Assembly: GCA_022729795.1 (NCBI GenBank)
Contig: DZBD01000002.1
Location: 1 to 63,866 of the forward strand
DNA from: Sulfuricurvum sp.
Lineage (GTDB): Bacteria; Campylobacterota; Campylobacteria; Campylobacterales; Sulfurimonadaceae
Reading direction: 5' to 3'
DNA: 63,866 nt
Shown: in pieces, positions 1,002 through 63,866 of the stretch
Layout of the letters: every line of letters starts with the position of its first letter
Numbering within the stretch: position 1 is the stretch's first letter
Translations under genes and position numbers: made by a program
The notes under the pieces: generated by a model
Told to the model about the DNA's origin: nothing
The model's database searches: none
The model's input: only the letters and a program-made list of their open reading frames with translations

Positions 1002-2792
1002 TTGAAAAACATTAGAAATTTTTCTATCATTGCGCATATCGACCATGGTAAAAGTACTTTAGCCGACCGTATTATTCAAGAATGCGGATCGGTTAGCGAA
1101 AGAGAACTTGGCAAGCAAATGATGGATACGATGGACATTGAAAAAGAGCGCGGTATTACCATTAAAGCGCAAAGTGTGAGACTTGATTATGTCAAAGACG
1201 GGCAACACTATATACTCAACCTTATCGATACTCCGGGGCATGTGGATTTCTCCTATGAAGTGAGCAAATCATTAGCTTCGAGTGATGGCGCACTGCTTAT
1301 CGTGGATGCAGCACAAGGTGTGGAAGCACAGACAATTGCGAATGTTTATCTCGCACTTGAGAACAACTTAGAACTCATCCCCGTTATCAATAAAATCGAC
1401 CTTCCCGCAGCAGATCCCGTAAAAGTAGCAGAGGAGATAGAAACAAGTATAGGAATAGATGCAACAGATGCTATTTTGGTATCAGCCAAAACAGGTGTCG
1501 GTATTCGCACGCTTCTTGATGCTATCGTTGAGAGGATACCCGCTCCAATTGGAGATGAAAAAGCTCCAACAAAGGCAATCATTTATGATTCTTGGTTTGA
1601 CCCGTATTTAGGTGCTCTAGGGCTTGTGCGCGTATTTGACGGTGAAATCAAAATAAACCAACTCGTAAGACTTATGAGTAACGGTGAAGAGCATCAGGTT
1701 CTTGATTTGATGTACCCTCACCCGCTTAAGCGCAAAAAAACCAATGTTATCAAAACAGGAGAAATTGGAATCGTTGTGCTCGGACTTAAAGAGGTTCACG
1801 TAGTCAATGTCGGAGACACTATTACCGATGCCAAAAACCCTACGGCAGAACCAGTTCTCAAATACGAACCTGCAAAACCTTTTGTATTTGCCGGACTCTA
1901 TCCGATAGATACGGATGAGTTTGAAGAGCTTCGTGATGCACTCGACAAACTCAAACTAAACGATAGCTCACTCTCTTATGAGCCTGAAACATCGGTGGCT
2001 CTTGGCTTTGGCTTTCGTGTAGGATTTCTTGGTATGCTTCATATGGAGGTTATCAAAGAGAGGTTAGAACGTGAATTTGATTTGGATCTCATCGCTACTG
2101 CGCCGTCCGTTGTATATCATGTTTTTTTAACAAACGGAGAGATGATTAATGTACAGAATCCCTCAGAACTCCCGCCTGTAAACCACATAGCACGTATAGA
2201 AGAGCCTTACGTAAAGGCAACAGTCATCACTCCGACAATCTATCTTGGAAATATTATGAATCTTTTGGTAAACAAAAGGGGGACTCAAGATAAAATGACC
2301 TATCTCAATGAAGACAGAGTTATGCTTGAATATTCCCTTCCTATGAATGAGATAGTTGTAGATTTTTACGATAAGCTCAAATCTATCTCCAAAGGCTATG
2401 CAAGTTTTGATTATGAACCAATTGATTTTCAAGAGGGTGATTTGGTAAAACTCGATGTGGTTGTAGCCGGCGATGTCGTAGATGCTTTAAGTATTATCGT
2501 TCACCGCTCTGCTGCGGATTCTCGTGGTCGTGCACTTGTAAAAAACATGAAAGAGATTGTTCCTCGTCAACTTTTTGAGGTGGCAATCCAAGCATCTTTG
2601 GGCAACAAAGTAATCGCAAGAGAAACAGTAAAATCTATGGGTAAAAACGTGACCGCCAAATGTTACGGCGGTGATATTACTCGAAAAAGAAAACTACTCG
2701 AAAAACAAAAAGCGGGTAAAAAAAGAATGAAGTCTATAGGAAAAGTACAGCTTCCCCAAGAGGCATTTATGTCCGTTTTAAAAATGGACTAA
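1002..2792 (+). CDS. lepA: elongation factor 4 (LepA)
   Basis: [23 protein letters not shown] and C-terminal [21 protein letters not shown] start. Confidence 0.98.
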
Positions 2793-2793
2793 A

Positions 2794-3369
2794 ATGCGAT
2801 GTATGTTGTGTGAGGGTTTATCTTTCACACATATATGTTCCACATGCCAAGAAACTTTTCTCTCTCCCTCTTTATATAAACGAAAAATTCTTCATAATAT
2901 CGAAGTACTCTCTTTTTATAAATACTCCCAAATCAAAGAACTCCTCCTTACAAAACATACTGATTTGGGCTACTATATCTATTCTATCTTGGCAAAAAAC
3001 AGTTTTGAAAAATTTACTCAAAATTTTGTATTTCCACATGCCGTGGTATCAATAGCCATAGACGACCATGTAAGAAGCGGCTATTCTCATACTGCAATTC
3101 TCAACAAGACACTTCAAAGCAGTTGTATCAAACCATTATATAATAAGCTCAGAGCCGAAAATGATATTTCTTATGCAGGAAAAAGCAGAGAGTTCAGATT
3201 GCTTCATCCACGAAAATTTCAGCTTAAGCGCTTTAGTGAAGAGGATGTTATTCTAGTGGATGATATAATTACAACAGGATTTACACTCGGCGAAGCTGTC
3301 AATGCAATGCGCCAAGCGGGAAAAAATGTCCTTTTTTGTATCACCTTGGCCGATGCAAGTTTGAAATAA
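2794..3369 (+). CDS. comF: ComF-family competence protein (zinc finger plus phosphoribosyltransferase domain)
   Basis: N-terminal CxxC-x7-CxxC (CMLC...CSTC) and PRT motif VILVDDIITTGFTL. Confidence 0.85.
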   Translation: MRCMLCEGLSFTHICSTCQETFLSPSLYKRKILHNIEVLSFYKYSQIKELLLTKHTDLGYYIYSILAKNSFEKFTQNFVFPHAVVSIAIDDHVRSGYSHTAILNKTLQSSCIKPLYNKLRAENDISYAGKSREFRLLHPRKFQLKRFSEEDVILVDDIITTGFTLGEAVNAMRQAGKNVLFCITLADASLK

Positions 3370-3387: not shown

Positions 3388-3825
3388 TTGAAAAAACTAC
3401 TTTTATTTTTTATGCCTCTGTTTCTTTGTGCTCAAATGATTCAAATTGGAGACACGATAATCCCCGTGACTCTTAAATCCCAACATGATAAAGAATATAG
3501 TTTGGTAAAAGACGGCATGTGGATTATCACGTGGGATAAAGAAACAACAGCTATTGCCAATGAATATTTTGAAAACGCTCCGTTAGCCGAAAATGTCAAC
3601 TTGTTGGTAGATGTTTCCCAAATCCCCTCAGGAATCTTAAACCTCTTCGTACTACCGCGTATGAAAAAATACCGCCACCCTATTTTGCTTAGCTATGATG
3701 AAGCCTATAATGTGACTCTTCCTTATCAAGAAGAGAATCTCACTCTATTAAGCGTCAAAAACGGTATTCTTACAAAGATTGAATATGTCAAAAATCAAGA
3801 GGAGCTAGAAAAGCTTTTGAAGTAA
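3388..3825 (+). CDS. exported hypothetical protein
   Basis: Signal-peptide-like N-terminus (MKKLLLFFMPLFLCA) and AAGGA RBS. Family not recognised with certainty. Confidence 0.7.
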   Translation: MKKLLLFFMPLFLCAQMIQIGDTIIPVTLKSQHDKEYSLVKDGMWIITWDKETTAIANEYFENAPLAENVNLLVDVSQIPSGILNLFVLPRMKKYRHPILLSYDEAYNVTLPYQEENLTLLSVKNGILTKIEYVKNQEELEKLLK

Positions 3826-5775
3826 CTTTCCAACTTCTTGTTGTATCGCCTCGCCCGCTTGAGACTTCATAAGTTTCTCTAAATCTATTGAGATTTTGGG
3901 TGATGTTACCTCACCCCTGAGCGTCGCCGTAATTGGGCTTTTATTCGCTACAAGCGTTACTGTTGCGTCCATCTGCTTTGTTTTGGAATTCAATTTCGCA
4001 TCTTTTGTCGTGATAGAAGAGGTGTTGGATTTCAAATCGAGCGAAGCTACGATATTTTCTTTGTTGCTTGCCGCACTCAACTCACCTTCAAACTTTTCTA
4101 TGTACATATCCACTTTTACATACTGTTTTACCAAGTCTAACATTTGGCTTTTTACAAATTTTCCATCCGTTAAATGAGCTTGAAGAGTTCCTTTTTGTTG
4201 CATCAAATTATAGGATAGTTTGCCGTCAAGTGTTGATTTAAAAACTTCAGGATAGATGAGTATATTTAAAATATCAAGCGTTTGCAAGCTATGCAAGTCT
4301 GCTCTAAAATCATCATTATGGAGTGTCGCATCAATATCTCCGCCTGCAACTTTGGAGCGGACACTTAAATCTAAATCTTTTGCTTTTTGGAATTCACCCT
4401 CGGCGCTTATTCCTCCGCGCATATGTCTTTGCGTCAGAAAATAAAGCTTATCCAAACTAGAGATTTGTATTTTATAGTCGCTTTTTAAAGAGCCGTCTTT
4501 GAGGTTGAATCTGACTCTGTTACTATCGAATTTTAAAAGACTTGATTCTAAAGCAAGCTTTGTATCGACAATATCACCGCTAAGAACCGTGTGCGCAGTT
4601 GAGTGAAAAGTTGTTGTAGGCATAGGACTTGTAAACCCATACGTTTGTGTTATATATTGCGAATCAAGGAGACCGTTTTTTACATTTGTATTGACAATTC
4701 CTTGCAAACTACCGCCCGACATCTCTGATATATCAGCATCCAAAAATAAAACTCCATCTGTATAATGTGGCTGTTTGCTCATGTAAAGCAGTTTTGAAAT
4801 TTGCATATTTTTTATATTTGCTTTGATTTTGTCCGGCTTAAACTCTTTCAAAACAGCTTCAAATATTGTATCTGATGATGCCAAATCACTTTGCCCATCT
4901 ATCACTAAATGTGACTTATCACCTTTTATTTTGCCCTCAATTCGTAACGCACCCCTAATATCTGCCCCTAGAAGAGGTTTTAAAACGGCAAGTTCTTGTA
5001 TGTTGAGTGCATATTTAGCATCTGCCTTAAAAGGCTCAGGCATAATTTTTCCCGAAGATGTGATATTGGCAAGATTTGAGCTGAGAATGTATGTATAGTC
5101 CACATCGTCACCTTTGAGTTTTGCATCAAGATTCATAGCAAAATCTGTTTTTACCAGCTTTGTGGCCATTTTACCTTTTTGAGTCTCTAGTGAAATAGTA
5201 CCGTTCATGGCATGTGGAGTGATATCCGTAAAATAAATATCCAAATTTACATCTGCATCTGCATACGCTTTTTCTCCTATCATATGAAGCAATAAAGCCA
5301 GTTGTGCTTTTTGAACCTTCGCTTTTATTGATACAGGATGAAAATCATTAAGCTTCACATGGTAGCTAGTATCGCTATGTGCCAAATCACTTACACCGGC
5401 GATATCTATCAAATGCAAATCTCCACAAACCGTTCCGCTTGTATGAAAGTTACCGCTCACAGGTACTTTTACAAAATTTTGCAAAGCTTGAAGATTGTCT
5501 ATTTTGAGTTTATAAGAGATATTAAAATCTTGTAAAAAAAGAGAATATTTACCATTGAAAGAGATGCTGTTATTGCTATCTAACTCTAAAACAATATCAA
5601 AATCACTCATATTTAGATGAAATGTACTGAGTTTACTCTCTAATTTTGTTTGTTTTTGTATCTCTTTTTCTAGTATCGGTCCAATAATGCTATTCCCAAA
5701 AGATGTAAACACAATAACATAAACCACAGCCAATAGTGCTACCAAAACTGTACCAAACCAAGCTAAATACTTCAT
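3805..5775 (-). CDS. membrane-anchored periplasmic beta-rich protein (AsmA/TamB-like)
   Basis: Single N-terminal TM helix, then repeated beta-strand-rich segments (GxSDLAxSDT occurs twice) and an AsmA-like C-terminus (ATLRGEVTSPKISIDL). Confidence 0.65.
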   Translation of the reverse strand: MKYLAWFGTVLVALLAVVYVIVFTSFGNSIIGPILEKEIQKQTKLESKLSTFHLNMSDFDIVLELDSNNSISFNGKYSLFLQDFNISYKLKIDNLQALQNFVKVPVSGNFHTSGTVCGDLHLIDIAGVSDLAHSDTSYHVKLNDFHPVSIKAKVQKAQLALLLHMIGEKAYADADVNLDIYFTDITPHAMNGTISLETQKGKMATKLVKTDFAMNLDAKLKGDDVDYTYILSSNLANITSSGKIMPEPFKADAKYALNIQELAVLKPLLGADIRGALRIEGKIKGDKSHLVIDGQSDLASSDTIFEAVLKEFKPDKIKANIKNMQISKLLYMSKQPHYTDGVLFLDADISEMSGGSLQGIVNTNVKNGLLDSQYITQTYGFTSPMPTTTFHSTAHTVLSGDIVDTKLALESSLLKFDSNRVRFNLKDGSLKSDYKIQISSLDKLYFLTQRHMRGGISAEGEFQKAKDLDLSVRSKVAGGDIDATLHNDDFRADLHSLQTLDILNILIYPEVFKSTLDGKLSYNLMQQKGTLQAHLTDGKFVKSQMLDLVKQYVKVDMYIEKFEGELSAASNKENIVASLDLKSNTSSITTKDAKLNSKTKQMDATVTLVANKSPITATLRGEVTSPKISIDLEKLMKSQAGEAIQQEVGKLLQKLF

Positions 5776-8460: not shown

Positions 8461-8498
8461 TTCCACATGCCGAGATGTTTTATTCTTGGCATGTGGAA
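8461..8498. terminator. probable bidirectional terminator hairpin formed by an inverted pair of the TTCCACATGCC motif
   Basis: TTCCACATGCCGAGA, 8-nt loop, TCTTGGCATGTGGAA: a 15-bp stem with one G.T pair, between convergent stops at 8448 and 8501. Confidence 0.85.
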
Positions 8499-8500
8499 TT

Positions 8501-10243: not shown

Positions 10244-10741
10244 ATGAAATCAAAAATAGCACATTACATAAAAGAGATAGCTCTCTTTCTCATTTTTATG
10301 ACTCTTTTAATGAATGCTCTTAGTTTATACAAAAGCCAAGATTTAAACAAAGAAGCATTCGCTCTAAAGGATATTATATTAGTGGATAATCAAAAATATA
10401 TCATTCCACATGCCAAGCCTATACTTATACATTTTTGGGCAACATGGTGCCCTACTTGTAAGTTTGAAGCATCCAATATACAAAAAGTATCTGAGCATTA
10501 TGAGGTATTGAGTATAGCCGTAAAATCTGGCAGTGATGACGATATCAAACACTTTTTACAAAGTCATGAATTAAATTATAAAGTAGTGAATGACAAAAAT
10601 GGATTTCTTGCTAATAAATTTAATATTGCAGCCTATCCGAGTACATTTATTTATGACAAAGATAAAAATCTTGTATTGAGTGAGGTTGGATATACTAGCA
10701 CTTGGGGGTTATTACTTCGAATGTGGTGGGCAGGAATATAA
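10244..10741 (+). CDS. TlpA/ResA-like membrane-anchored thiol-disulfide oxidoreductase
   Basis: N-terminal TM helix, HFWATWCPTC and YPSTFIYD. Confidence 0.88.
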   Translation: MKSKIAHYIKEIALFLIFMTLLMNALSLYKSQDLNKEAFALKDIILVDNQKYIIPHAKPILIHFWATWCPTCKFEASNIQKVSEHYEVLSIAVKSGSDDDIKHFLQSHELNYKVVNDKNGFLANKFNIAAYPSTFIYDKDKNLVLSEVGYTSTWGLLLRMWWAGI

Positions 10742-10746: not shown

Positions 10747-10783
10747 TTTCTTGGCATGTGGATTATTTCCACATGCCAAGAAA
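10747..10783. terminator. probable bidirectional terminator hairpin formed by an inverted pair of the TTCCACATGCC motif
   Basis: TTTCTTGGCATGTGGA, loop TTATT, TCCACATGCCAAGAAA: a perfect 16-bp stem between convergent stops at 10741 and 10787. Confidence 0.88.
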
Positions 10784-10786
10784 GAA

Positions 10787-14179: not shown

Positions 14180-14189
14180 TCATTTCTCC

Positions 14190-15730: not shown

Positions 15731-16067
15731 ATATTCTCCTTTAACCTTATTGTGACTAATTTAAGATTTATAACCATCACTAATCTTTTGAAAAAGAAAG
15801 CCTTATACTATAAAATCGGCTTCTTTACTGCTAAAAATAGTATCAAAGAAACCTTAAAATCGTTATAAATATGTAATAACTTTTTGATATTTTTTTTAAT
15901 ACTGAGTAGATTCGAATAAGAAATATTTATAAAATTATAAGCATAAATATATTTTTATGTTTAAGTGGGAGTTAGAAGAAATACATTTACGAATATTTTC
16001 GCTTAATTCTAATAGTACTATATCTACATGCTATTGAAGATACCATGCAGATATAAAGATTATTTTT

Positions 16068-16544: not shown

Positions 16545-16618
16545 AAAGACTCCTCTTATAAATGAATAGAGGCATTTTACACTTAAATCTATAGTTATTT
16601 CTTATAAAAATAAACTAC

Positions 16619-17908: not shown

Positions 17909-17910
17909 AC

Positions 17911-18868: not shown

Positions 18869-18883
18869 ATTTTTACCCTTGAG

Positions 18884-19432: not shown

Positions 19433-19559
19433 ACTACATATCCTTTTTATTAAAAACGCAATTATACAACAGCTTTGGTCTTTCTTTACTTCTACCGTAA
19501 CTATAGATTAACAAAATATAAACTATAATTTCTTTTTTAAAAATCTACATGGATATACT

Positions 19560-20885: not shown

Positions 20886-20892
20886 GTTTAGA

Positions 20893-21606: not shown

Positions 21607-21609
21607 ATA

Positions 21610-25201: not shown

Positions 25202-25204
25202 AGA

Positions 25205-26149: not shown

Positions 26150-26562
26150 TACCAAATGATTTTTTTGCCGAACCCCAAAGTATTATCCGTCATTTTAAAA
26201 TAATTTACTTTGATTTGCCAAAGTTTCGGGCGCAAAAGTACGGCATGTGGAAATGCTTTGAAATAAAGCTTTTTAAGTTCCGAATCTTGCAGTACTAAAA
26301 ACTCACCCCGAAACTGAACCCCTTGAATTTTTCCTACCGTTTTTGTTTCCAGAAGTACATTTCCGGCTATCCGGGAGTTGTGATTTATATGGCGGATATG
26401 GGTAGTTTCATCACTGCTTGCAACGATGAAGGAGATATGTTCAAGAGAAAAAACATAAAAAAGACTGCATACGCTGAGCATCGTATCACTAGAAGTAGCC
26501 AAACTCATCACATGATGTTCGTTTAAAAACAGAACAATCTTTTCTAAATTTTTTTGCATCAA
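26146..26562 (-). CDS. pyridoxamine 5'-phosphate oxidase-like (YhbP/UPF0306) protein
   Basis: HVMSLAT, IQGVQFRG and KMTDNTLGFGKK. Confidence 0.82.
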   Translation of the reverse strand: MMQKNLEKIVLFLNEHHVMSLATSSDTMLSVCSLFYVFSLEHISFIVASSDETTHIRHINHNSRIAGNVLLETKTVGKIQGVQFRGEFLVLQDSELKKLYFKAFPHAVLLRPKLWQIKVNYFKMTDNTLGFGKKIIWY

Positions 26563-26786: not shown

Positions 26787-27982
26787 CTTCCCCCAAACTT
26801 TCTTTGTAAAGCATTTTCGAGTTGCTCCAATACTTGTGACATTTTAGCACGTGAGAGCGCAAAATTCAACCGCATAAAGCCGCTTCCCTCTCTGCCGAAG
26901 CTTATTCCCGCATTCAAGCCAAGCTTTGCCTCGTTTACAAAAAAATCTCGTAACTCTTTATCGTGAAACTGCATCCCTCTGCAATCAAGCCAAGCTAAAT
27001 ATGTAGCTTGTATAGGTGTCACTTTTATGGCATGTGGATATTTTTCACATACGCCTTGGAGTAAATAAAAATTCTCTAAAAGATGGATTTTCAGCTCTTC
27101 AAGCCAAACTTTGCCGTGTGTATAAGCCGCCTCAAATCCCACATGCCCAAAAACGGTTCCCTGAGCAAAATGGATTCGCTTATAAACTTGAGCAAATTTC
27201 GCCCTCAATACTTCGCTCGGTATCGCAACACTGCTCATTGCAAAACCTGCCATATTAAAAGTCTTGCCGACTCCCATAGCAGTAATTGTAATCTCTTTTG
27301 CCTTGTCTGAGAGAGAGGCAAAAGGGATATGTTTGTTGGGATAGTATATTAAATCCGAATGAATTTCATCGGAAAAAACAGTAATTTTATGTTCTAAGCA
27401 AAGGTCTAAAATCTCTTGAAGCTCCTCATTTTGCCAAACACGACCGACCGGATTATGGGGAGAGCAAAGAAGTAAAAGTTTTGTTCTCTCATTGATTTTG
27501 GCTTTTAAGTCTTCTCTATCAAAAACATACTTTCCACATGCCGAGAGTTTGAGAGGATTTTTAATAAGCGTTCTTTTATGTGTCTTTACGCTATGAAAAA
27601 ATGGCGGATAAACAGGGGTCTGAACAATCACGCCCTCTCCCTCATCGCTAAAAGCCTCGATAGCTACGTTCATACTTGCTACTACGGAATGGGAATAAAA
27701 CATCTCTTCTAATTTAAAATCTACTCCGTGCTCTTTTTGCATCCAAGCAATCTGCGCCAAAAATGCACTTTCGGGCATCTCTTCATATCCGAAAATAGGA
27801 TGTTCCAGCCTCTTTTTTAGAGCATCCAATACAAAATCGGGAGTGTTTATATCCATATCCGCCACCCAAACAGGAAGCAAATCTTCTCTGCCGAAAAGCT
27901 TTTTTTTCAAAGTGTACTTTTCGGCGTTTGTACCCTCTCGGCATGTGGAAATGCTAAAATCGTAGCTCACTTCTTTTTCCAA
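26783..27982 (-). CDS. MalY/PatB-family PLP-dependent C-S lyase
   Basis: PVWVADMD, LCSPHNPVGRVW, SDEIHSD, KTFNMAG and ATYLAWLD. Confidence 0.92.
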   Translation of the reverse strand: MEKEVSYDFSISTCREGTNAEKYTLKKKLFGREDLLPVWVADMDINTPDFVLDALKKRLEHPIFGYEEMPESAFLAQIAWMQKEHGVDFKLEEMFYSHSVVASMNVAIEAFSDEGEGVIVQTPVYPPFFHSVKTHKRTLIKNPLKLSACGKYVFDREDLKAKINERTKLLLLCSPHNPVGRVWQNEELQEILDLCLEHKITVFSDEIHSDLIYYPNKHIPFASLSDKAKEITITAMGVGKTFNMAGFAMSSVAIPSEVLRAKFAQVYKRIHFAQGTVFGHVGFEAAYTHGKVWLEELKIHLLENFYLLQGVCEKYPHAIKVTPIQATYLAWLDCRGMQFHDKELRDFFVNEAKLGLNAGISFGREGSGFMRLNFALSRAKMSQVLEQLENALQRKFGGR

Positions 27983-36829: not shown

Positions 36830-36838
36830 AAATAGATA

Positions 36839-40258: not shown

Positions 40259-40264
40259 AGCACC

Positions 40265-42088: not shown

Positions 42089-42115
42089 TTTATACTACCT
42101 ATCACTTATAAATTA

Positions 42116-42913
42116 TTATTCGCTTAATGCTGCTCTTTTTACTCTCTCGAATCTTTTTGAAATTTGTGCATCTATATTTCCCGCATCGCTGATAGCTATC
42201 ACACCGCCAGGGCTAACTGCACTATCAGAGACCACTTCCACATGCCTAAGTGAGCCGACATGTTCAGACAAAGGACCGTGATCTTTGGGATTTACTTTGA
42301 GCAGAACTTTTGATGCACTTTGCAACTCTTTAATTAACTCATCCGACAAAACTTTTGCAACCTTTGCAGAATCGGCGCTAAGCTCCGCACTGATAACCTC
42401 TTTGGATATATCCAAAGCTGCAACAATAAGTTCACCCTTAATCCCCTCAAGAGCACTTTCAAACTCTTTTGCACTGTTTTCCAATTTTGCTACAGAGGAT
42501 GAAAATTGGGCAAGCCCTTCAATATGACCTGATTCTCTATGTTGTGCGGCTTGATGTTTGCCTGCTTCAACTCCCTCTAAAAAAGCAGCTTCTTTAACTT
42601 TTTTGAGTTGCTGTGCATATTCTTCCTCTTTTGATTCGAGCTTCATCTGAAGCTTTATAAAATTTGATGACATCTCATCCGTTTTATTCATCAGTGATTC
42701 TATCAGAACATCTTTAGAGTTTTGGCTTTGGGGATTTGAATCCGTATCACTGTCGCGTCGCTTGGGATTTTCCTCTTTTGAATACTCCGCAGCACTTGCC
42801 GGCTCAGTTCTTGCCGACTTGGAATCTTCGTTGGCACCCATAGCAAATACTTTAAAATTATACTTATCCACGGCGTGCTTAGATATGAACTTACTAGAAA
42901 TTATCGTTGCCAT
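42116..42913 (-). CDS. fliH: flagellar assembly protein FliH
   Basis: Follows fliG. Coiled coil with EGVEAG, then VNPKD and GGVI...GNIDA. Confidence 0.9.
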   Translation of the reverse strand: MATIISSKFISKHAVDKYNFKVFAMGANEDSKSARTEPASAAEYSKEENPKRRDSDTDSNPQSQNSKDVLIESLMNKTDEMSSNFIKLQMKLESKEEEYAQQLKKVKEAAFLEGVEAGKHQAAQHRESGHIEGLAQFSSSVAKLENSAKEFESALEGIKGELIVAALDISKEVISAELSADSAKVAKVLSDELIKELQSASKVLLKVNPKDHGPLSEHVGSLRHVEVVSDSAVSPGGVIAISDAGNIDAQISKRFERVKRAALSE

Positions 42914-42915
42914 AA

Positions 42916-47855: not shown

Positions 47856-48628
47856 AAAGCCTCCATTATCTCTTGCATATCATGAAAAACCATGTCCGGC
47901 TTTAGATGTTCTTTCAAAAACGGGACTATCTCCTGTGCGGTTTTATATTTTCCGCTTGTTACAAAAATAGTTTTCATCCCCATCTCTTTTGCACCGCCCA
48001 AATCCCCTTTGACGTCATCGCTGATTATAGTAATCTCTTCAAGCTTGGCATGTGGAACTTGTTGGCGCATCATTTTCAAAGACTCTCTATAAAAAGCTTC
48101 ACTTGGTTTGCCGACTACGGTATAGGGGGTAGACGTAGCAAATTCAAGAAGTTTTAAAATGGCTCCCACTCCAGGGTATCTTTTGTTATTTTTCGCATAA
48201 ATTGAGGTCTCGTGCATACCGACCAAGGCTGCGCCGCTGAGTAAAAAATCTATCATCTGTGCGTACTCGTCGGGCATAAAATCTTCTTTAATAGAAACAA
48301 GCACTGTTTTTGGATTTTTATAGTCTAAAACATAACCCATCTTGCATAAGCCGTCTAAAAATTCTTTGGCGCCATACGCCGCAACTGCATCTTTTTCTAC
48401 ATGCGATTCTAAAAGCATCAGAGGATCCAAATATTTTGAAAAATCGAAATGAAATCCTTGTTTTTGCAAAAATGCATAAAAATCTTTAGAAGATTGTTTT
48501 GTATTATTTGTAATAACCATATAGGGAATTTTATTATCATTGAGCATATCAATAAACTCTCTACTTCCACGAATAGGTGACTTATCCTCATCACTGATTA
48601 AAGTGCCTTGCACATCTATAAAATACAA
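47852..48628 (-). CDS. HAD-superfamily subfamily IIA hydrolase
   Basis: FIDVQGTL, ITNN, VGKPS and SDDVKGDL. Confidence 0.9.
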   Translation of the reverse strand: MYFIDVQGTLISDEDKSPIRGSREFIDMLNDNKIPYMVITNNTKQSSKDFYAFLQKQGFHFDFSKYLDPLMLLESHVEKDAVAAYGAKEFLDGLCKMGYVLDYKNPKTVLVSIKEDFMPDEYAQMIDFLLSGAALVGMHETSIYAKNNKRYPGVGAILKLLEFATSTPYTVVGKPSEAFYRESLKMMRQQVPHAKLEEITIISDDVKGDLGGAKEMGMKTIFVTSGKYKTAQEIVPFLKEHLKPDMVFHDMQEIMEAL

Positions 48629-51050: not shown

Positions 51051-51608
51051 TTATTTTAGCTGAAATTTTTTAATCGTAAATTGGGAACTTGCGTCCTCAA
51101 GTGAGTTTTCAAGAAGAAATTCTACTGCATCACAGGCCTGCGAAATCCACATGCCAAGATGTTTGGATTCTTGTGGATTAAAATCACTCAGCACATAAGA
51201 TGCTACCTCACCCTTATGCTCAGGTTTTCCTATGCCCATTCTTACTCTTGCATATTCTTTTGAAATCTTTTCATCTGTTGATTTGAGACCGTTATGCCCG
51301 CCGTGTCCGCCGTCAAACTTAAACCGAAGTGTTCCAAAAGGTAAATCTAAATCATCATGTATTACAACAACCGCATCAATCTTGTAAAATTTCTTTACTA
51401 ATGCAATGGACTCCCCTGATAAATTCATAAAGGTAAGAGGTTTTAATAAAAAATGATTTGAGAATTTAAAAAGTTCACCCTTAAATGAGGAAGAAGAAAG
51501 TTTTTGAGCATCTAAACGACGGATAAGCTCGTCTATCACCATAAAGCCTATGTTATGGCGTGTATTTTCATATGCCGGTCCAGGATTTCCTAGCCCGACA
51601 ATGAGCAT
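51051..51608 (-). CDS. pth: peptidyl-tRNA hydrolase
   Basis: GLGNPG, TRHNIGF, MNLSG, HDDLD and GGHNGLKS. Confidence 0.98.
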   Translation of the reverse strand: MLIVGLGNPGPAYENTRHNIGFMVIDELIRRLDAQKLSSSSFKGELFKFSNHFLLKPLTFMNLSGESIALVKKFYKIDAVVVIHDDLDLPFGTLRFKFDGGHGGHNGLKSTDEKISKEYARVRMGIGKPEHKGEVASYVLSDFNPQESKHLGMWISQACDAVEFLLENSLEDASSQFTIKKFQLK

Positions 51609-52221: not shown

Positions 52222-53415
52222 TTAGTCTTTCAAACTAAAAATATCATTACCGCTCTCTTTTGTGAGGTTCTTTGCTTGAGCATCCACTGAACCGGCAGAA
52301 ACTTGACCGCTACTGAGTCCGCTTATTCTTAACTCCAAATCCGAGGCACTCGTCGCATTTGCTTTTGCCTGTTCTTTGGAGATTATTCCCTCGTCATACA
52401 AATCAAGGATAGACTGATCAAAACTTTGGGATTTATAATGTTCTCTCCCTTTTTCCAAGGTTTCTCGAATTTCGTAATCACGTTTTTCCAAAATAAGTTT
52501 CTCTATTGTCGGCGTGTTCACCAAAATTTCCAGAGCTGCACGTCTTTTTCCATCAACGGTCGGGATAAGCCTTTGGGAAACAACTCCTTGCAAAACACTT
52601 GATAGCGATAAGCGCACACGGTTTTGCTCGTCTGTGGGATACTGAGCAATAATACGGTTTATAGTCTCTTTGGCATCAATAGTATGGAGAGTTGAAAAAA
52701 CTAAGTGCCCCGTGTCTGCAGCATGTAATGCCAAATCTATTGTTTCTCTATCCCTCATCTCCCCTACAAGAATAATATCCGGATCTTCACGAAGTGCCGC
52801 CCTTAATGCGGCACTAAAGGAGAGTGTGTCTTGCCCGACGGAGCGCTGATTAATTATACATCCTCTATCTTTGTGGACAAATTCGATTGGGTCTTCAATG
52901 GTAATAATATGTTTTTTCTTTGTCAGATTTATTTCATTGATTATCGATGCCAAGGTAGTTGACTTACCGCTTCCCGTAGCTCCCGTCACCAAAATAAGAC
53001 CTCTTTCTTTTTGAGTAAATGCTTTAATCACTTCCGGAAGATGCAATTCGGCTATTGTTGGAACTTTTACAGGAATAATACGAAATACGGCAGAAACACC
53101 GTCCATCTGAAAAAAAACATTCACACGAAAGCGGTTTCTCTCATCATAAGGATAAACCAAATCTATCTCTTTATGTTCGAGAAACTCTGCATATCTACTC
53201 TTGAGCAACTCTTTTGCAAAAGTGAGTGCATCTTCTTTTAAAAAAATATCACCGGCAAACTGAATAAGGTTTCCGTTGATTCTAGCTCTGATAACAGAAT
53301 TTGCTTTAACGTGCAAATCGCTTCCGCCGAGTTCTATCATCTTTTTTAGATAGGCACGAACTTTTTTTAACTGCTCAAACGATAAGCTAGCGACATCTAT
53401 ATCTTGGCTGCTCAT
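52222..53415 (-). CDS. pilT: PilT/PilU-family type IV pilus retraction ATPase
   Basis: SDLH, RFRVNVF, GATGSGKSTT, TIEDPIE, ALREDPD and GHLVFSTLHT. Confidence 0.9.
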   Translation of the reverse strand: MSSQDIDVASLSFEQLKKVRAYLKKMIELGGSDLHVKANSVIRARINGNLIQFAGDIFLKEDALTFAKELLKSRYAEFLEHKEIDLVYPYDERNRFRVNVFFQMDGVSAVFRIIPVKVPTIAELHLPEVIKAFTQKERGLILVTGATGSGKSTTLASIINEINLTKKKHIITIEDPIEFVHKDRGCIINQRSVGQDTLSFSAALRAALREDPDIILVGEMRDRETIDLALHAADTGHLVFSTLHTIDAKETINRIIAQYPTDEQNRVRLSLSSVLQGVVSQRLIPTVDGKRRAALEILVNTPTIEKLILEKRDYEIRETLEKGREHYKSQSFDQSILDLYDEGIISKEQAKANATSASDLELRISGLSSGQVSAGSVDAQAKNLTKESGNDIFSLKD

Positions 53416-54392
53416 AAAGTGTCCAAGATATCTTTAAAGGCATCTTTAAAGGCATTTAAGCCATCGAGAATTTGTTTTTCAAGAACTGCATCAAAGTTGA
53501 TACCGATATCCGCTATTCTTTGAAAATGTTTTTGTATCAGCTCATCGGAAATGGGGAGCGCACTCTCTCTCAAACCATCTTTGTGATACGCTTTAATAGT
53601 ATCTATGGGAGCGGTGTTTACGCTATTGTATGCTAAAAGTTTTTCCACATAATAATGTGCCGCCAAAGAGTCGTCTTTTACTCCGGTGCTTGCAAACAGT
53701 GTTCTACAGCCCGTAACATTTTCCCCTTGTATTGCGGCATAAATATCCGCGGAGTTGTATATTCCGCTGAGTGCGGTTGCAATATTATTTTTGCTAAGTT
53801 CAGCATCGAGTGCACGGTCGACTCTGCTTACGAATATACTAATAACGGTGTCCACTTTTGCTCCATGTTGTGCCACTCCCGCTCGAAAAGCATTTGCACA
53901 TGCCAAGGCTTGCGCTTTTGAAAAAATAAGTGTAGCATTTACGGGAATTCCACATGCCGTAAGTTCTTCCATTGCCTGATAGCCCGCAGTTGTTGCCGGC
54001 ACTTTTATCATTACGTTTTTTCTGTTGATTGTACTAAAGAGTCTTTTTCCCTCAGAGATTGTAGCATCTGCATCATCGCACAAAAAAGGGTCTACCTCTA
54101 TGCTAACATACCCGTCGTCACCGCTATCGTAAAGCGGTTTGAGAATATCTGCAGCTTTACTAATATCATAGATTGCCAAAGCCTCGTACTTCTCTTTGGG
54201 CGAAAGCACACCAAGCGTTTGCAACTGTTCTTTATATGCAGGAGAATTCAAAATAGCATTTTTAAAAATAGCAGGATTTGAAGTAGCTCCGTTAATGATT
54301 TTGTGTTGAATTAAATCTTTAAACTCGTTATCTAAGTAATCTCTTTCAATAAAATCTGCCCACAAGGAGAATTTCAAATCTTCTATATACAT
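53412..54392 (-). CDS. tal: transaldolase
   Basis: GATSNPAIF, VSIEVDP, MIKVPAT, NATLIFS and FASTGVK. Confidence 0.95.
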   Translation of the reverse strand: MYIEDLKFSLWADFIERDYLDNEFKDLIQHKIINGATSNPAIFKNAILNSPAYKEQLQTLGVLSPKEKYEALAIYDISKAADILKPLYDSGDDGYVSIEVDPFLCDDADATISEGKRLFSTINRKNVMIKVPATTAGYQAMEELTACGIPVNATLIFSKAQALACANAFRAGVAQHGAKVDTVISIFVSRVDRALDAELSKNNIATALSGIYNSADIYAAIQGENVTGCRTLFASTGVKDDSLAAHYYVEKLLAYNSVNTAPIDTIKAYHKDGLRESALPISDELIQKHFQRIADIGINFDAVLEKQILDGLNAFKDAFKDILDTL

Positions 54393-56505: not shown

Positions 56506-57444
56506 CTAAGGAAGATAAATTTTATCTAAAAGTTCATCGTATTCACTTTGAACACTACTATCAAGCGTAATGCCGCCGCCGCTTTTATAAATATACCCTT
56601 CTTTTGTTTTTTCTATAAAACGAATCATCACCCCGCTGTCCAATTTTTTGCCGTCATATACACCGAAAATACCGCTAAAATAGCCTCTCTCATACCCTTC
56701 AATTTTTTCAATAATCTCCAAAGTACTCTTTTTCGGCGCACCGCTAATGCTTCCGGCAGGAAGAAGGGATTTTAACAGAGTTCCAATTTCCACATGCCAA
56801 GAATCTCCGACATCTCCGCTGATATGGGAGCTTACCTGAAGCAGTTTTTTTTCTCCGGCATCAAGCTCTTGCACATAACGAAACGATTCCACCTTCACGT
56901 TTGTTGCAACAATAGAGAGATCATTTCGGAGTAAATCTACCACCATCACATGTTCTGCCATCTCTTTTTGGTTCTTTAAAATCATTTGCTCGGCATGTGG
57001 AATTGAAGCGTCTATAGTTCCTTTCATGGGATAAGTGTGTATTTTATTATCCTCTATTCGTATAAATTTTTCAGGTGAAAAACACACGAATTTATCTTTA
57101 TACCTTAACTTGTAATGAGCATTGGCATACTGATAAATTTCCTTGAGACTCAGCGATGTGACTATGGGCGTGGGTTGTGTAAGATTCAAAAGGTAGGTTT
57201 CGCCTGACTTAATTTTTTCGATAACACAATTAAATTTTTGCTCATACGCATTAAAGTCGATGGGAAATTTTTTTAATATATGGGGATGTGGCTGTTTAAT
57301 ATAATTTTCATCAATGCAAAAGGCAACATCTTCGGCATCCAATGCATCAAGGGGAATAATTTCTAAATTTTCGGCCTTAAAATCACAGATAAACAAAAAA
57401 GGTTTTCTCTGTTTTCCTAGGGCATTCAGATATTCAAATTTCAT
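56506..57444 (-). CDS. pabB: aminodeoxychorismate synthase component I
   Basis: [33 protein letters not shown] and SGGGIT. Confidence 0.9.
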
Positions 57445-58309
57445 AAATCAGTTTTTTGAGCACTGCCATTCTAATAGACACTCCGTTGGAGACCTGACCA
57501 AGCACCTTACATCTCTCATCCGCCAAAAGCGCATCGCAGATATCTATATTTCTATGGACGGGTCCCGGATGAAGCAAGATAATATCTCTCTCTCCGACCA
57601 ACTCCGAAGTGATACAAAAATCGCTTGCATAGTCTTTGAGTGAAGCGTAATTTTGAGAAGAGTGCCTCTCAGTTTGAGTGCGAAGACTCATAATAGCATC
57701 CACTTCATCTATTATTTCATGGATATAGTGGGTTGTTTTTAATGATGTTTTTGGGAGAAACTGAGGAGGAGCCACCAAAATTACTTTCATTCCAAATCTC
57801 GTCAAAAGTTCTATATTGGAGTTGGCGACGCGGGAGTTTTTTATATCCCCGACTATTGCTATTTTTTTTCCTCGTACATCGCCAAAATGCTCTTTTAAAG
57901 TGTAAAGGTCCAAGAGTGCTTGAGTCGGATGTGCATGTGCGCCGTCCCCTGCATTGATGATTGCGGCTTTTGTGTGGTTAGAGAGAATCTTCGCAACACC
58001 GGCATTTTGATGTCTCACTATGATGGCATGTGGACCCATCGCATCCAAATTCATCGCCGTATCTACAAGGGTTTCCCCCTTGGTTGTAGAGCTTTTTGCA
58101 ACATCCAAATGCACCATCTCGGCACCGAGTCTTTTGGCTGCTATCTCAAATGAGCTTCGCGTTCTCGTTGAGTTTTCAAAAAAAAGTGTAATAATGATTT
58201 TGTCTTGTAAGATTCTTTCAAATCTTCCGTCGCTAAATCTCTTTGCATCGGTTAAAATCTCTTCAATCTCTTGGGTTGTAAAATCATCTGTGCGGATTAA
58301 ATGCTTCAT
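57434..58309 (-). CDS. pyrB: aspartate carbamoyltransferase catalytic subunit
   Basis: [24 protein letters not shown] and HPGP. Start re-called at ATG 58309 (MKHLI). Confidence 0.97.
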
Positions 58310-58328: not shown

Positions 58329-58979
58329 TTATAGATTATACAAAACATCACATATTTTTACAATATCTTCATTCACTTTAAGCACTTTTTGATTTGTTTT
58401 CAAAAAATAAGGTTCCGATACGATCGCAAAACTTTTATCACTCTCTTTACAGTTAAAAGCTACGGCATGTGGAATATTTCTCTCTTGAAGAGCCTTTTGA
58501 CTCAAAAGGGTGTCATTGATGCATCCAAGAGAGCAATGGGTCACTAAAAGTGCAGTGGCTTTCAAATAGGTGATTAAATCTATCATCATCGTATTTTCGT
58601 CTATAGGCACATAGAGTCCGCCTGCACCCTCGATGATAACAAGGTCACAAGAGGCTTCCATCTCTTGAATTTTGATTTGAATTTTTTTCAAATCAAAAGG
58701 GATATTGTTTGAAGCTACAAAAGGAGCAGCAGGCAACTCGTAGGTAATAGGGACGATATCTTCTACTTCCAAAGACCAAAGTTTATGATTACACTCTTTT
58801 GCACATGCCAAGAGTTCTTCTCCATCAGCAGCATATCCGTCGATTACCCCTGTTTCAATAGGCTTTATAACACCCACTAAAATTCCACGCGAAGCAAATT
58901 CACGTAAGAGCAACTTTGTTGTATAAGTCTTACCGATGTCGGTATTTGTGGCCGTCACAAAAATCCGTTTTTTCATCAT
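58329..58979 (-). CDS. bioD: dethiobiotin synthase
   Basis: [19 protein letters not shown] and LGCINDT. Confidence 0.95.
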
Positions 58980-59128: not shown

Positions 59129-59294
59129 CTTCTATCCTTTAAAATTTTATTATTGGATTCTAACATAAAAAGTATTATTTCCACATGCCAAGCTTCTACG
59201 CTCAGTATAAAGCTTCACGGCTAATACAATTTCTTTTTTTTATATTTATCACTACTTCGGTATAATTTATCAACTTTTATAAGGCTTACAATAA

Positions 59295-60530
59295 ATGAAT
59301 CATTTTGAAGAATATTGCACTACTTTTGTGCAATCTATAGGTTCCAAAGAGGGAGCCGTCAGCCCGAGCGTGACTAACTCTGCCTCTTTTGCTTATGAAA
59401 CTCCGGAGACGGCAGAGGGAATTTTTGACGGAAGTATAAAAAAACCGCTTTATTCAAGAATGGGGAATCCTACAACTGCAAAACTTGAGAATATAATGGC
59501 AGAGATGGACGGCGGTATCGGTGCCGTTGCCACAAGCTCAGGAATGGGCGCGACTGCGCTTGCAACACTCTCCCTCTTGGCATGTGGAGATGAGATTATT
59601 AGTGTCGGCGGTTTGTTCGGCGGAACCTATGCTCTCTTTAGCGAAACTCTCGTGCGCTTTGGGATTAAGACACATTTTTTTGATGTGGATGCTTTGGAGG
59701 AGATAGAAAATGCTATCAACGATAACACAAAAATAATCTTTTTAGAGAGTGTCGGGAATCCGAATATGAGACTTCCCGATATTACAAAAATTGCACACAT
59801 TGCCGACAAAGCCGCAATAGCTTTCATAGTCGACAATACTATCACTCCATTGAGTATTTTTCCTCTCAAACTCGGTGCCGACATCGTGGTGTATTCCACA
59901 ACTAAAATTATTGCAGGAAATTCATCGGCTCTTGGCGGATGTGCGGTTTTTCGTGCTATAAACGAAGGTGAAGATAAGTTTAAATCACTTCGCTACAAAG
60001 AACTAGAAAAATTTATCAAAAATACGGGAAAAATGGCACTTATTCCTAATGCCAAAAAAAGGGCTCTAAGGGATTTCGGGATGAGTGCAAATGCACATGC
60101 CAGCTACCAAACAATGCTTGGGCTGGAGACTCTTGCACTTCGAATGGATAGAATTATACAAAGTGTCGAGATTGTCGCTCAGGAACTTGACAAAAATGGG
60201 ATCAACGTCAATCACCCCTCTTTAGAAAAACATCCCCACCATCAAAGATATTTAGATATGTTTTCAAATGGATGCGGCACTTTACTGACCATAGATATGG
60301 GTTCCAAAGAAAAGGCATTTGCATTTTTAAACAAAACAAAACTTGCAACAATCACCGCAAATATCGGTGACAGCAGAACGCTTGCTTTGCACATGGCATC
60401 GACAATTTATAGAGATTTTGATGCAAAAGAGAAAGAATTTTTAGGGATAACAGACGGTCTTATAAGGATATCCATAGGGCTAGAAAATCCGCAAGATATC
60501 ATAAAAGATTTTTTAGAATCGACAAAGTAG
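59295..60530 (+). CDS. Cys/Met metabolism PLP enzyme (O-acetyl/O-succinylhomoserine sulfhydrylase-like)
   Basis: YSRMGNPT, SSGMGA, VDNT, YSTTK, NIGDSRTL and IRISIGLE. Confidence 0.9.
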   Translation: MNHFEEYCTTFVQSIGSKEGAVSPSVTNSASFAYETPETAEGIFDGSIKKPLYSRMGNPTTAKLENIMAEMDGGIGAVATSSGMGATALATLSLLACGDEIISVGGLFGGTYALFSETLVRFGIKTHFFDVDALEEIENAINDNTKIIFLESVGNPNMRLPDITKIAHIADKAAIAFIVDNTITPLSIFPLKLGADIVVYSTTKIIAGNSSALGGCAVFRAINEGEDKFKSLRYKELEKFIKNTGKMALIPNAKKRALRDFGMSANAHASYQTMLGLETLALRMDRIIQSVEIVAQELDKNGINVNHPSLEKHPHHQRYLDMFSNGCGTLLTIDMGSKEKAFAFLNKTKLATITANIGDSRTLALHMASTIYRDFDAKEKEFLGITDGLIRISIGLENPQDIIKDFLESTK

Positions 60531-63013: not shown

Positions 63014-63711
63014 ATATACCGCAACTCTCCAAATATAAATTAACTTTTCCACATGCCAATGATGCAAATGAAGACGGAATCGTGGCTTGGGGTGGGGATT
63101 TAAACCACTCAAGGCTTATTCGTGCTTACCAAAATGGGATTTTTCCTTGGTATGGAAAAAATGACCCTATTATTTGGTGGTCGCCAAATCCACGACTTAT
63201 AATGGAGCTTCAAGATTTCAAATGTAGCCGCTCTTTAAAAAAAAGTATAAAAAAATTTACTTATAAATTTGATACTCATTTTAAAGAGGTGATGTTGCAA
63301 TGTGCGTCCACTCCTAGAATAGGCCAAAATGGAACATGGATACAAGATGAGATTATAGAAGCCTACGAAGTACTCCACGGAATGGGAATCGCCCACAGCA
63401 TAGAAAGCTATTTTGAGGGTAATCTAGTAGGTGGATTGTATGGAGTTGTTATCGGTGGAGTTTTTTGTGGAGAATCTATGTTTGCACATGCCAATGATGC
63501 ATCTAAGGCAGCCTATGCTGTTTTAGTCAGCCATCTAAAATTATGGGGATACGATTTTATTGATTGCCAAGTACCAACAAATCATCTTAAAAGTTTAGGT
63601 GCAAAAGAAGTTGAGAGAAAGTATTTTTTAGAGAGATTATATAAAGTAAATATGAATGTAATAAAACATGTATGGGAAATAAATATATCTGCTCTAGAGG
63701 AATTATTATAA
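63010..63711 (+). CDS. aat: leucyl/phenylalanyl-tRNA--protein transferase
   Basis: AYQNGIFPW, WWSPNPR, GGLYGV, FCGESMF and DCQ. Confidence 0.96.
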   Translation: MNIPQLSKYKLTFPHANDANEDGIVAWGGDLNHSRLIRAYQNGIFPWYGKNDPIIWWSPNPRLIMELQDFKCSRSLKKSIKKFTYKFDTHFKEVMLQCASTPRIGQNGTWIQDEIIEAYEVLHGMGIAHSIESYFEGNLVGGLYGVVIGGVFCGESMFAHANDASKAAYAVLVSHLKLWGYDFIDCQVPTNHLKSLGAKEVERKYFLERLYKVNMNVIKHVWEINISALEELL

Positions 63712-63866
63712 TTATTTATCATATATTCCACATGCCAAAGAGTAAAAACACGCAAATAGATATAAAATTTTAAAAAGTTAAATAAAGCAAAAGTATAGAT
63801 TTAAAAAGTGCAAAAAGAGATAAGAGGATTAAAAAGTAGATTTTGACAACTAGGCAGCGACCTACA

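What the first reader, a model, noticed from the sequence alone, without database searches (positions are those of the whole stretch)
1237..63738. Candidate novel DNA uptake sequence TTCCACATGCC(A/G)AG dispersed through a Campylobacterota chromosome
Seen: 35 exact copies of the 9-mer CCACATGCC/GGCATGTGG in 63.9 kb, about 1 per 1.8 kb. Of these, 34 extend to TCCACATGCC and many to the 14-mer TTCCACATGCC(A/G)AG. At an eyeballed GC of about 36%, roughly 0.15 copies are expected, so enrichment is on the order of 200-fold. Orientation is balanced (18 vs 17), the motif is not palindromic, 29 copies lie inside called CDSs, and 4 form terminator inverted repeats. Established: this combination is typical of the Neisseriaceae DUS (GCCGTCTGAA) and Pasteurellaceae USS (AAGTGCGGT), which accumulate through biased DNA uptake. 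C. jejuni instead selects DNA by methylated RAATTY sites, and I know of no DUS reported in Campylobacterota. Inference: this lineage has an independently evolved sequence-specific uptake system with an unknown receptor. An alternative is a genome-wide binding site for an unknown chromosome protein.
Basis: partly seen in the sequence, partly recalled or inferred. Interest (0 to 1): 0.95.

Follow-up and report, generated by a model that had tools for sequence, protein, structure and literature searches.

The report
Uptake-like DNA word dialects in Sulfurimonas
This bacterium has written one short DNA word, TTCCACATGCC, about 900 times through its genes and gene ends, related species carry either the same word or a palindromic version with the same ACATG core, and the word likely tags the cell's own kind of DNA for preferential uptake, although no uptake test has been done and the protein that would read it was not found.

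Summary
Observation confirmed: 35 CCACATGCC in the window against 0.23 by shuffle, 893 in the 2.25 Mb genome, consensus aWTTCCACATGCCRAG. It has no strand polarity. It occurs in all six frames and inflates the tripeptide PHA tenfold. It forms hairpin pairs after stop codons and is absent from 157 kb of phage-like contigs (0 against 62 expected).

Of 194 genomes of the genus (Sulfurimonas), 13 carry 261-1307 copies. A separate 26 carry the palindrome TACATGTA instead, as do most genomes of another family. The two words partly occupy the same orthologous positions, so they are dialects of one system.

Competence genes are present in all classes. No methyltransferase tracks the motif and no receptor was identified. 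The best reading is a DNA-uptake-sequence-like signal (0.55); uptake is untested. Ten library searches found no paper on it. The scan earlier noted the palindromic dialect alone on other genomes, not its link to this word.

The parts
1237..1245 (-). Motif copy inside lepA (1002-2792 +); on the coding strand it lies in the codons for P-G-H-V-D-F
   Evidence: orthologues of non-A genomes spell the same residues without the motif
2794..3369 (+). comF-like gene with two copies (2840-2848 +, 3034-3042 +)
   Evidence: TIGR00201 E 4e-11, below its cut-off; comF holds 8 copies in 5.4 kb over 10 class A genomes
3514..3522 (-). Motif copy in ORF 3388-3825
5209..5217 (-). Motif copy in ORF 3805-5775
8461..8498 (.). 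Inverted pair of copies (8463 +, 8488 -) between convergent dnaK and a response-regulator/HD gene; predicted bidirectional terminator hairpin
   Evidence: -26.1 kcal/mol, z -6.14
10406..10414 (+). Motif copy in thioredoxin-like ORF 10244-10741
10749..10785 (.). Inverted pair of copies (10753 -, 10769 +) between the convergent thioredoxin-like and molybdopterin oxidoreductase genes; predicted terminator hairpin
   Evidence: -27.4 kcal/mol, z -8.55
26242..26250 (-). Motif copy in ORF 26146-26562
27029..27948 (.). Four copies (27029 -, 27139 +, 27534 +, 27940 -) in the aminotransferase ORF 26783-27982
29192..29643 (.). Four copies (29192 -, 29241 +, 29466 +, 29635 +) in the DinB/FGE-sulfatase/methyltransferase ORF 27967-30075
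32629..32637 (-). Motif copy in ORF 31990-34041
36204..36702 (.). Three copies (36204 -, 36325 +, 36694 -) in the Cu-oxidase_4 ORF 36077-36829
42238..42246 (+). Motif copy in fliH
48047..48055 (-). Motif copy in HAD hydrolase ORF
51147..51155 (+). Motif copy in pth
52222..53415 (-). pilT/pilU-family retraction ATPase, part of the putative uptake machinery; no motif inside
   Evidence: TIGR01420 422 bits against cut-off 319
53950..53958 (+). Motif copy in transaldolase
56790..57000 (.). Two copies (56790 +, 56992 -) in the chorismate-binding ORF
58025..58033 (-). Motif copy in the aspartate/ornithine carbamoyltransferase ORF
58464..58472 (-). Motif copy in AAA_26 ORF 58329-58979
59181..59189 (+). 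Single intergenic copy between divergent genes
59579..59587 (-). Motif copy in Cys/Met PLP enzyme ORF
63049..63057 (+). Motif copy in Leu/Phe-tRNA protein transferase ORF
63728..63736 (+). Single intergenic copy just after the stop codon of that ORF

Best explanation
The word aWTTCCACATGCCRAG is written about 900 times into this genome by point substitutions, and it is likely a DNA-uptake-type self tag: a sequence-specific reader on the cts/MSHA-like competence pilus would favour incoming DNA that carries it, and recombination would then spread it wherever genes tolerate it. Shown: copy number, lack of polarity, placement in tolerant genes and after stop codons, absence from phage-like DNA, and alternative words with the shared core YACATGY in relatives (TCCACATGCC, ACATGCCAW, YTACATGTAR, TTTACATGTAAA).
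For: Copy number: 893 copies with a sharp core; each single change inside CACATGC of the 10-mer occurs 6 times or fewer, against 840 exact. No polarity: 325 against 336 on 86 skew-oriented contigs. Proteome imprint: all six frames are used; PHA occurs 260 times against 27 expected, and 252 of 260 are spelled as the motif against 2.6% expected. Tolerance: 0.74/kb in the least and 0.09/kb in the most conserved quartile of 341 genes, the pattern in the abstract of PMC2817400 for USS/DUS. Point origin: 3 of 217 aligned sites touch a gap, background 1.1%. Terminator use: 83 copies in 15.7 kb between convergent genes (68 in inverted pairs) against 17 in 35 kb between divergent genes. Foreign DNA: 0 copies in six contigs (157 kb) with phage hallmarks or almost no Pfam match, against 62 expected; none in LPS, restriction and cas1 contigs. 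Dialects: the 13 high-A genomes have only 14-36 TACATGTA, and the 26 genomes with 211-850 TACATGTA have 0-40 TCCACATGCC. 9 of 80 aligned TACATGTA sites fall on G000 sites against about 0.04 by chance. Decay: the low-A genomes keep 11 of 30 sites within one mismatch against 4 of 91 in motif-free genomes (p 3e-5, kin not independent). Machinery: intact comEC with 3 copies, comF with 2, dprA, two PilT-like ATPases and a ctsD/P/X/E/F-like operon. C. jejuni uses such a pilus system for selective uptake (PMC10046745 passages).
Against: No uptake or binding data. Competence-pilus genes are also intact in genomes without either word (MshO-like 57 of 60; priA with upstream pilins 29 of 30), so machinery does not predict the motif. 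None of the pilins scanned matches ComP_DUS, and no pilin tree follows dialect. The tip-protein association is incomplete: one clade holds 16 of 25 class B and 0 of 9 high-A genomes, but 9 class B lie outside and 5 motif-free inside; only 3 independent pairs, p 0.25; its passenger domains look like adhesins. Dialects are scattered on the lepA+prs+comF tree (11 high-A genomes need 7 changes), whereas Neisseriaceae dialects follow the core phylogeny (PMC3630211 passage). The wider sister dialect is a palindrome, unlike DUS and USS. recA, radA and dprA hold no copy, and the comF+comEC excess shrinks to p 0.025 against the rate of low-codon-bias genes.
Confidence: 0.55

Rival explanations
1. HIP1-like intracellular drive: a cytoplasmic protein that binds or nicks at the ACATG-core word stimulates homologous recombination or biased repair there, so the word spreads by conversion after DNA entry rather than by selective uptake.
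For: The commoner dialect is an octamer palindrome at about 0.3-0.6/kb. Unmethylated HIP1 helps transformation only when homologous (bioRxiv 10.1101/2024.09.10.611283 passages). It predicts the same genomic distribution as uptake drive. Pilus genes do not track the word.
Against: The window dialect is asymmetric and pairs into terminators like DUS. No cognate methyltransferase tracks it, whereas HIPs generally come with one (PMC4390886 abstract).
Confidence: 0.24
2. Binding site of an abundant chromosome-organising or replication/repair protein, kept by selection on the resident chromosome.
For: Sites are conserved between distant class A genomes: 34 of 59 exact against 8% expected from 75.5% identity. 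Palindromic dialects suit a dimer.
Against: Spacing is near random (CV 1.1). Sites run round a closed chromosome with no ori or ter focus (first 100 of 113 sites in G043). About 130 of 194 congeners have neither word at high level, so it is not an essential function. Promoter-side regions are the poorest intergenic class.
Confidence: 0.14
3. Methylation-dependent self tag as in C. jejuni (methylated RAATTY): a CATG or RCATGY methyltransferase marks the core and the mark is what is read.
For: The core contains CATG. An orphan methyltransferase whose 77%-identical homologue is named M.NlaIII sits before tsaD in many Sulfurimonas, and relatives of it occur in 4 of 5 f23 genomes tested.
Against: G000 has no D12-class or m5C methyltransferase (92% complete). 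The closed class B genomes G041 and G053 have neither class. The NlaIII-like enzyme is absent from the 8 other high-A genomes of at least 91% completeness and present in motif-free G052, G095, G152 and G232. Beta-class N6/N4 enzymes were not checked in the closed genomes.
Confidence: 0.05
4. Remnant of a mobile repeat (REP/MITE), a terminator family, or a Chi/KOPS-like polar signal.
For: 73 inverted pairs of the 8-mer core.
Against: The logo is flat beyond about 4 bases on either side. Sites align without indels inside genes. Only 134 of 893 copies are in inverted pairs. There is no strand bias.
Confidence: 0.02

Closest known systems
DUS of Neisseriaceae (reader: minor pilin ComP) and USS of Pasteurellaceae (predicted reader ComN)
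   Same: About 10-base non-palindromic word at hundreds to over a thousand copies, both strands, all frames, inflated tripeptides, preference for poorly conserved genes, absence from foreign DNA, inverted pairs at gene ends, and dialects round a fixed core (PMC2817400 abstract; PMC3630211 and bioRxiv 10.1101/2025.10.24.684340 passages).
   Different: Unrelated sequence and phylum. No ComP match among the pilins scanned. Dialects are patchy on the tree and can be absent from close relatives. One dialect is a palindrome. Uptake is not shown.
HIP1 and alternate HIPs of cyanobacteria (PMC4390886, PMC13756078)
   Same: The sister dialect TACATGTA / TTTACATGTAAA is a highly iterated palindrome with lineage-specific extensions and losses; HIP1 has also been linked to transformation.
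   Different: AT-rich. No tracking methyltransferase. The window's own dialect is not palindromic and its spacing is not periodic.
Methylated RAATTY uptake signal of Campylobacter jejuni (as cited in PMC10046745)
   Same: Same order and the same type of cts pilus machinery; the core RCATGY has a similar form.
   Different: Longer, sharper word with 150-fold enrichment. RAATTY hexamers are not enriched here (AAATTT O/E 0.95, GAATTC 0.66). No D12-class methyltransferase was found in G000.

Membership tests
DUS/USS uptake sequences | Hundreds to thousands of exact copies of a 9-10-mer across the chromosome | tested here: met
   893 9-mers and 840 10-mers; up to 1307 in relatives
DUS/USS uptake sequences | No strand or replichore polarity | tested here: met
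   325 against 336 on contigs oriented by GC skew
DUS/USS uptake sequences | Inside genes in all frames, inflating tripeptides, biased to poorly conserved genes | tested here: met
DUS/USS uptake sequences | Inverted pairs at transcription terminators | tested here: met
   68 of 83 copies between convergent genes are in inverted pairs; hairpins are predicted but termination was not measured
DUS/USS uptake sequences | Absent from phage and recently acquired DNA | tested here: met
   0 against 62 expected in 157 kb; in a MAG some of these contigs may be co-binned free phage
DUS/USS uptake sequences | Dialects share a core | tested here: met
   ACATG in all four words
DUS/USS uptake sequences | Dialects follow the core-genome tree | tested here: not met
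   Clustered more than chance but scattered over at least four clades on a three-gene tree
DUS/USS uptake sequences | Competence machinery present | tested here: met
   comEC, comF, dprA (by signature), PilT, secretin/ATPase/platform operons; no short ComEA
DUS/USS uptake sequences | ComP- or ComN-type specific receptor | tested here: inconclusive
   No ComP_DUS hit in the pilins scanned; no pilin tracks dialect cleanly; two G000 pilins are cut by contig ends
DUS/USS uptake sequences | Word raises DNA uptake or transformation | not testable with these tools
   Needs a bench assay
HIP1/alternate HIPs | Palindromic word | tested here: not met
   Not in the window's dialect; met in the sister dialect
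HIP1/alternate HIPs | Cognate orphan methyltransferase co-occurs | tested here: not met
   D12 and m5C classes are absent from G000, G041 and G053; beta class was checked only in G000, where the two hits over the cut-off look like type III Mod subunits
HIP1/alternate HIPs | Quasi-periodic spacing | tested here: not met
   CV of 680 gaps is 1.11, close to exponential
Chi / KOPS | Strong leading-strand polarity | tested here: not met
matS / Noc / parS type sites (copy numbers recalled) | Tens of sites confined to or excluded from one chromosome domain | tested here: not met
   Hundreds of sites; the sister dialect is spread round closed G043
C. jejuni methylated RAATTY signal | Signal works only when methylated | not testable with these tools
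   No methylome available; methyltransferase distribution argues against

The most novel reading that the evidence does not exclude
Sulfur-cycling Campylobacterota carry a third, independently evolved sequence-specific DNA-uptake system. Its reader sits on the MSHA-like competence pilus and is swapped between lineages, flipping the genome between an asymmetric DUS-type word (TCCACATGCC), a HIP-type palindrome (TACATGTA) and no word at all. DUS and HIP would then be two states of one mechanism, and dialects would set gene-flow barriers inside one genus.
Probability: 0.35. Interest if true: 0.92.

Novelty: new variant of a known kind. Interest (0 to 1): 0.76.

Why it matters
Uptake sequences read without methylation are described for two families only (passages of bioRxiv 10.1101/2025.10.24.684340), and the function of HIP1 is still argued (PMC13756078). 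Here one genus holds word-rich, word-decaying, alternative-word and word-free species side by side. Closed single-contig genomes exist for the palindromic and the word-free classes. That makes gain, switch and loss of such a signal comparable and testable, and links DUS-type and HIP-type repeats. If the word controls uptake, adding it to DNA would also be a simple way to transform these environmental bacteria.

Tried and rejected
Literature: ten library searches listed no paper on CCACATGCC, TACATGTA or TTTACATGTAAA as a bacterial genome word. For one search only 30 of 532 string matches were listed and for 25 of 31; none of their titles concerns such a word. Most subscription papers and all supplements were not searched.

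Strand polarity was rejected and so was periodic spacing.

Methyltransferases: D12 class in 45 of 66 genomes without tracking. NlaIII-like enzyme in 1 of 5 low-A genomes (incomplete assemblies) and 4 of 5 f23 genomes, including a motif-poor one. m5C class in 3 of 5.

Receptor candidates that did not track dialect: the pilin beside the rRNA operon (56 of 64 genomes); MshD/O/P-like pilins (one I/V-type column in the MshO-like pilin separates class A in a naive permutation and is not taken as evidence); the Cj0683-like pilin before priA; the second pilus cluster on C68 (10 of 77 genomes, none of the other high-A genomes).

CATTAATG as a further dialect in word-free genomes was rejected (35-92 against control 22-47). 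Other words in that class were sampled on only 25-40 kb per genome, so they stay open.

rpoB was not assembled, so lepA, prs and comF served as markers. A single-sequence fold of the MshD-like pilin was uninformative (pLDDT 38). No RNA holder was listed. Contigs of four DNA runs laid on 25500-45499 gave too few clean differences to test polymorphism at sites. No Atlas look-alikes were obtained for the tip protein. Phage collections were not scanned.
Full report
OBSERVATION. The window is contig C34 of G000, a 2.25 Mb assembly in 140 contigs, 92% complete. It holds 35 CCACATGCC, 18 on + and 17 on -, against a shuffle mean of 0.23. The genome holds 893, and 840 of the 10-mer TCCACATGCC. These are the top 9- to 12-mers apart from N runs. 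The logo is a-W-T-T-C-CACATGCC-R-A-G and flat further out. Changes inside CACATGC are rare (6 or fewer each), while TGCACATGCC is a tolerated variant with 112 copies.

TAXON. A scan of GTDB genomes for the inverted doublet returned 111 loci, of which 80 were listed. 56 rows come from records titled Sulfurimonas, Campylobacterales, Helicobacteraceae or Campylobacterota, 13 from two unclassified MAGs, and 11 are scattered over other phyla. A protein of congener G181 is identical to one named from Sulfurimonas sp.. I therefore call the genus Sulfurimonas.

ANATOMY IN G000. There is no polarity: 325 against 336 on 86 contigs oriented by GC skew, where gene bases split 1.07 Mb to 0.39 Mb. 657 of 893 copies lie in ORFs, which cover 92% of the sequence, and all six frames are used. 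PHA occurs 260 times against 27 expected (its permutations 19-33), and 252 are spelled CCACATGCC against 2.6% expected from codon usage. ACG occurs 176 times against 23. Density falls from 0.88 to 0.08 per kb across deciles of a rough codon-adaptation score, and from 0.74 to 0.09 per kb from the least to the most conserved quartile of 341 genes with a fetched orthologue. Against word-free and class B orthologues, 3 of 217 sites touch a gap (background 1.1%). 48 of 214 differ only synonymously and the rest change one to four residues. The word therefore arises by substitution and reshapes proteins. Between genes it favours ends: 83 copies in 15.7 kb of convergent spacers (68 in inverted pairs), 102 in 92 kb of tandem spacers and 17 in 35 kb of divergent spacers. 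The two window pairs fold as 15-16 bp hairpins. Twelve contigs over 8 kb (215 kb) have no copy. Pfam on 74 of the 139 ORFs called on 11 of them shows portal, baseplate, HMUDK, TAGT, exonuclease and amidase genes on C91, C84 and C78, almost no matches on C10, C117 and C133, and LPS glycosyltransferases, McrBC/type I restriction, cas1 and cellulose synthase on others. The six phage-like contigs give 0 against 62 expected. Spacing is near exponential (CV 1.11).

RELATIVES AND DIALECTS. Of 194 genomes of the genus, 13 have 261-1307 TCCACATGCC (class A), 12 have 33-183 and 169 have 0-14. Sixteen other families of the order, one genome each, have 0-7. Twenty kb of apparently negative G043 showed another word. 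A genus scan found TACATGTA at 211-850 in 26 genomes (class B; reversed control 3-118 over all 194) but only 14-36 in the 13 class A genomes. Sub-dialects are CTACATGTAG (G043, G061) and TTACATGTAA (G041, G057). G193 has nYACATGCCAW. In an order-wide draw of 301 genomes, YACATGYV reaches 875-2023 per strand (control 109-339) in 16 of 24 genomes of family f23 and 806 and 1159 in two of three genomes of a sister genus. Outside f1 and f23 no genome exceeds about 330 per strand. The f23 word is TTTACATGTAAA. The tool does not name f23; an earlier scan note places this palindrome in Sulfurospirillum-type bacteria. On a lepA+prs+comF tree of 58 genomes, class A falls in at least four separate clades (7 changes for 11 genomes). 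G000 sites are exact in 34 of 59 aligned class A orthologues (8% expected), 3 of 30 low-A, 0 of 101 class B and 0 of 91 word-free. 9 of 80 aligned TACATGTA sites (8 distinct positions) sit on a G000 site against about 0.04 expected. Shared sites can reflect ancestry or the few places where proteins permit the core. Either way both words answer to the same constraint. Low-A genomes keep 11 of 30 sites within one mismatch against 4 of 91, which fits decay. In closed G043 the first 100 of 113 TCTACATGTAGA sites run from 0.02 to 2.50 Mb, with gaps of up to 230 kb and no ori or ter focus.

MACHINERY. G000 encodes an intact ComEC with 3 copies of the word, ComF with 2 (in the window), DprA, two PilT-like ATPases (one in the window) and three secretin/ATPase/platform clusters: a T2SS (C92), an accessory pilus (C68; 10 of 77 other genomes) and an operon on C69 that I read by gene order as ctsD/P/X/E/F-like. 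There is no short ComEA; PMC10046745 reports that comE is missing from most Campylobacter and of little weight for uptake (passages). priA and its upstream pilins are not assembled in G000. In relatives the first 1.7 kb of priA carries 2-4 copies in the seven class A genomes with a full locus. The MshQ/D/O/P-like cluster and the Cj0683-like pilin occur in all classes, so word-free species probably remain competent and lack only specificity; this is inference. The one lead is the C-terminal part of the hypervariable tip protein (DUF6701 in two of ten scanned). One starred clade of 24 holds 16 of 25 class B genomes, including one from another genus, none of 9 high-A, 3 low-A or A2 and 5 word-free genomes. 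In the out-of-sample set only 7 of 14 new class B genomes fell in it; 9 of 30 genomes gave no match and one fragment was dropped. The housekeeping data reject that group as a clade (AU p 7e-9), but only 3 independent pairs exist (p 0.25). This could be cause, a result of dialect-limited gene exchange, or kinship.

METHYLATION. The core holds CATG, and an orphan NlaIII-like enzyme (name from a 77%-identical homologue) is common in the genus. It is absent from high-A genomes and from closed class B genomes G041, G016, G053 and G057, and present in word-free ones. G041 and G053 also lack m5C enzymes. G000 shows only enzymes that look like type I or type III subunits. It is present in 5 of the 5 near-complete low-A genomes checked (two lineages), so methylation might block reading of dialect A. 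Three further low-A genomes, all incomplete, did not show it, so this stays a side idea.

MECHANISM. The shown facts demand a force that writes a specific word wherever sequence is free, spares recently acquired DNA, and can be lost or switched between close relatives. Biased uptake followed by recombination is the established mechanism with that signature. I put it at 0.55, an intracellular recombination or repair bias of HIP1 type at 0.24, and a chromosome-binding protein at 0.14.

COMPARISON AND NOVELTY. It works like DUS/USS on every genomic criterion tested except congruence of dialects with the tree. It cannot be filed as a member without an uptake test or a ComP-type reader. It fails the HIP1 criteria of palindromy (window dialect), methyltransferase and periodicity. 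Papers seen: PMC2817400 (abstract), PMC4390886 (abstract, passages), PMC13756078 (abstract, Discussion), PMC3630211, PMC10046745, bioRxiv 10.1101/2025.10.24.684340 and 10.1101/2024.09.10.611283 (passages); no supplements. Ten searches listed no paper on these words. Earlier notes of this scan describe TACATGTA in this order as HIP-like, and DUS-like words in other phyla. I had found the palindrome independently, and no note was returned for this genome or this word. Verdict: a real, genome-shaping, apparently undescribed word family that joins an asymmetric and a palindromic dialect; new variant of a known kind; interest 0.76.

Noticed in passing
G000:C91, C84, C78 (L122-L123, L129, L128); also C10, C117, C133: About 157 kb of phage-like contigs. 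C91 has a 5-hmdU DNA kinase helical domain, portal and baseplate J; C84 has a TET-associated glycosyltransferase, exonucleases and a Hint domain. This suggests a large phage with hypermodified DNA in or binned with this genome; most ORFs have no Pfam match.
   Followed up: partly
G000:C99:3510-5987 (L140): dnaB, directly upstream of comEC, carries an intein with a LAGLIDADG homing endonuclease.
   Followed up: no
G000:C71:1-196 and L223-L251: A hypervariable minor pilin gene lies after the ATP-citrate lyase genes and, in closed genomes, just before a conserved promoter that looks like that of an rRNA operon; many MAG contigs break there.
   Followed up: partly
G000:C58:80-5443 (L135) and L352-L391: MshQ-like pilus tip protein of about 960-2800 aa with shuffled Ig, Calx-beta and cadherin-like modules. 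Its gene tree conflicts with the housekeeping tree. The neighbouring MshD-like pilin has a conserved basic loop R.GH..Q..HRRC that could bind DNA.
   Followed up: partly
L265-L278: Orphan NlaIII-like adenine methyltransferase inserted just before tsaD in a patchy set of Sulfurimonas.
   Followed up: partly
window 10800-26200: A 15 kb stretch without any copy: molybdopterin oxidoreductase/NrfD/ferredoxin trio, histidinol dehydrogenase, purine genes. It fits the low density in conserved genes.
   Followed up: no
G000 whole genome: GATC (O/E 0.26) and GGCC (0.18) are strongly avoided.
   Followed up: no
L018, L042, L030, L033, L062, L068: The same inverted doublet occurs twice in one Phycisphaerae MAG and once each in four gut-type Clostridia records; chance or an unrelated element.
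   Followed up: no
L312 (G299:C1:1-20000): Besides CTTACATGTAAG, the word GTATGTGAAT is frequent in this 20 kb; it may be a local repeat.
   Followed up: no
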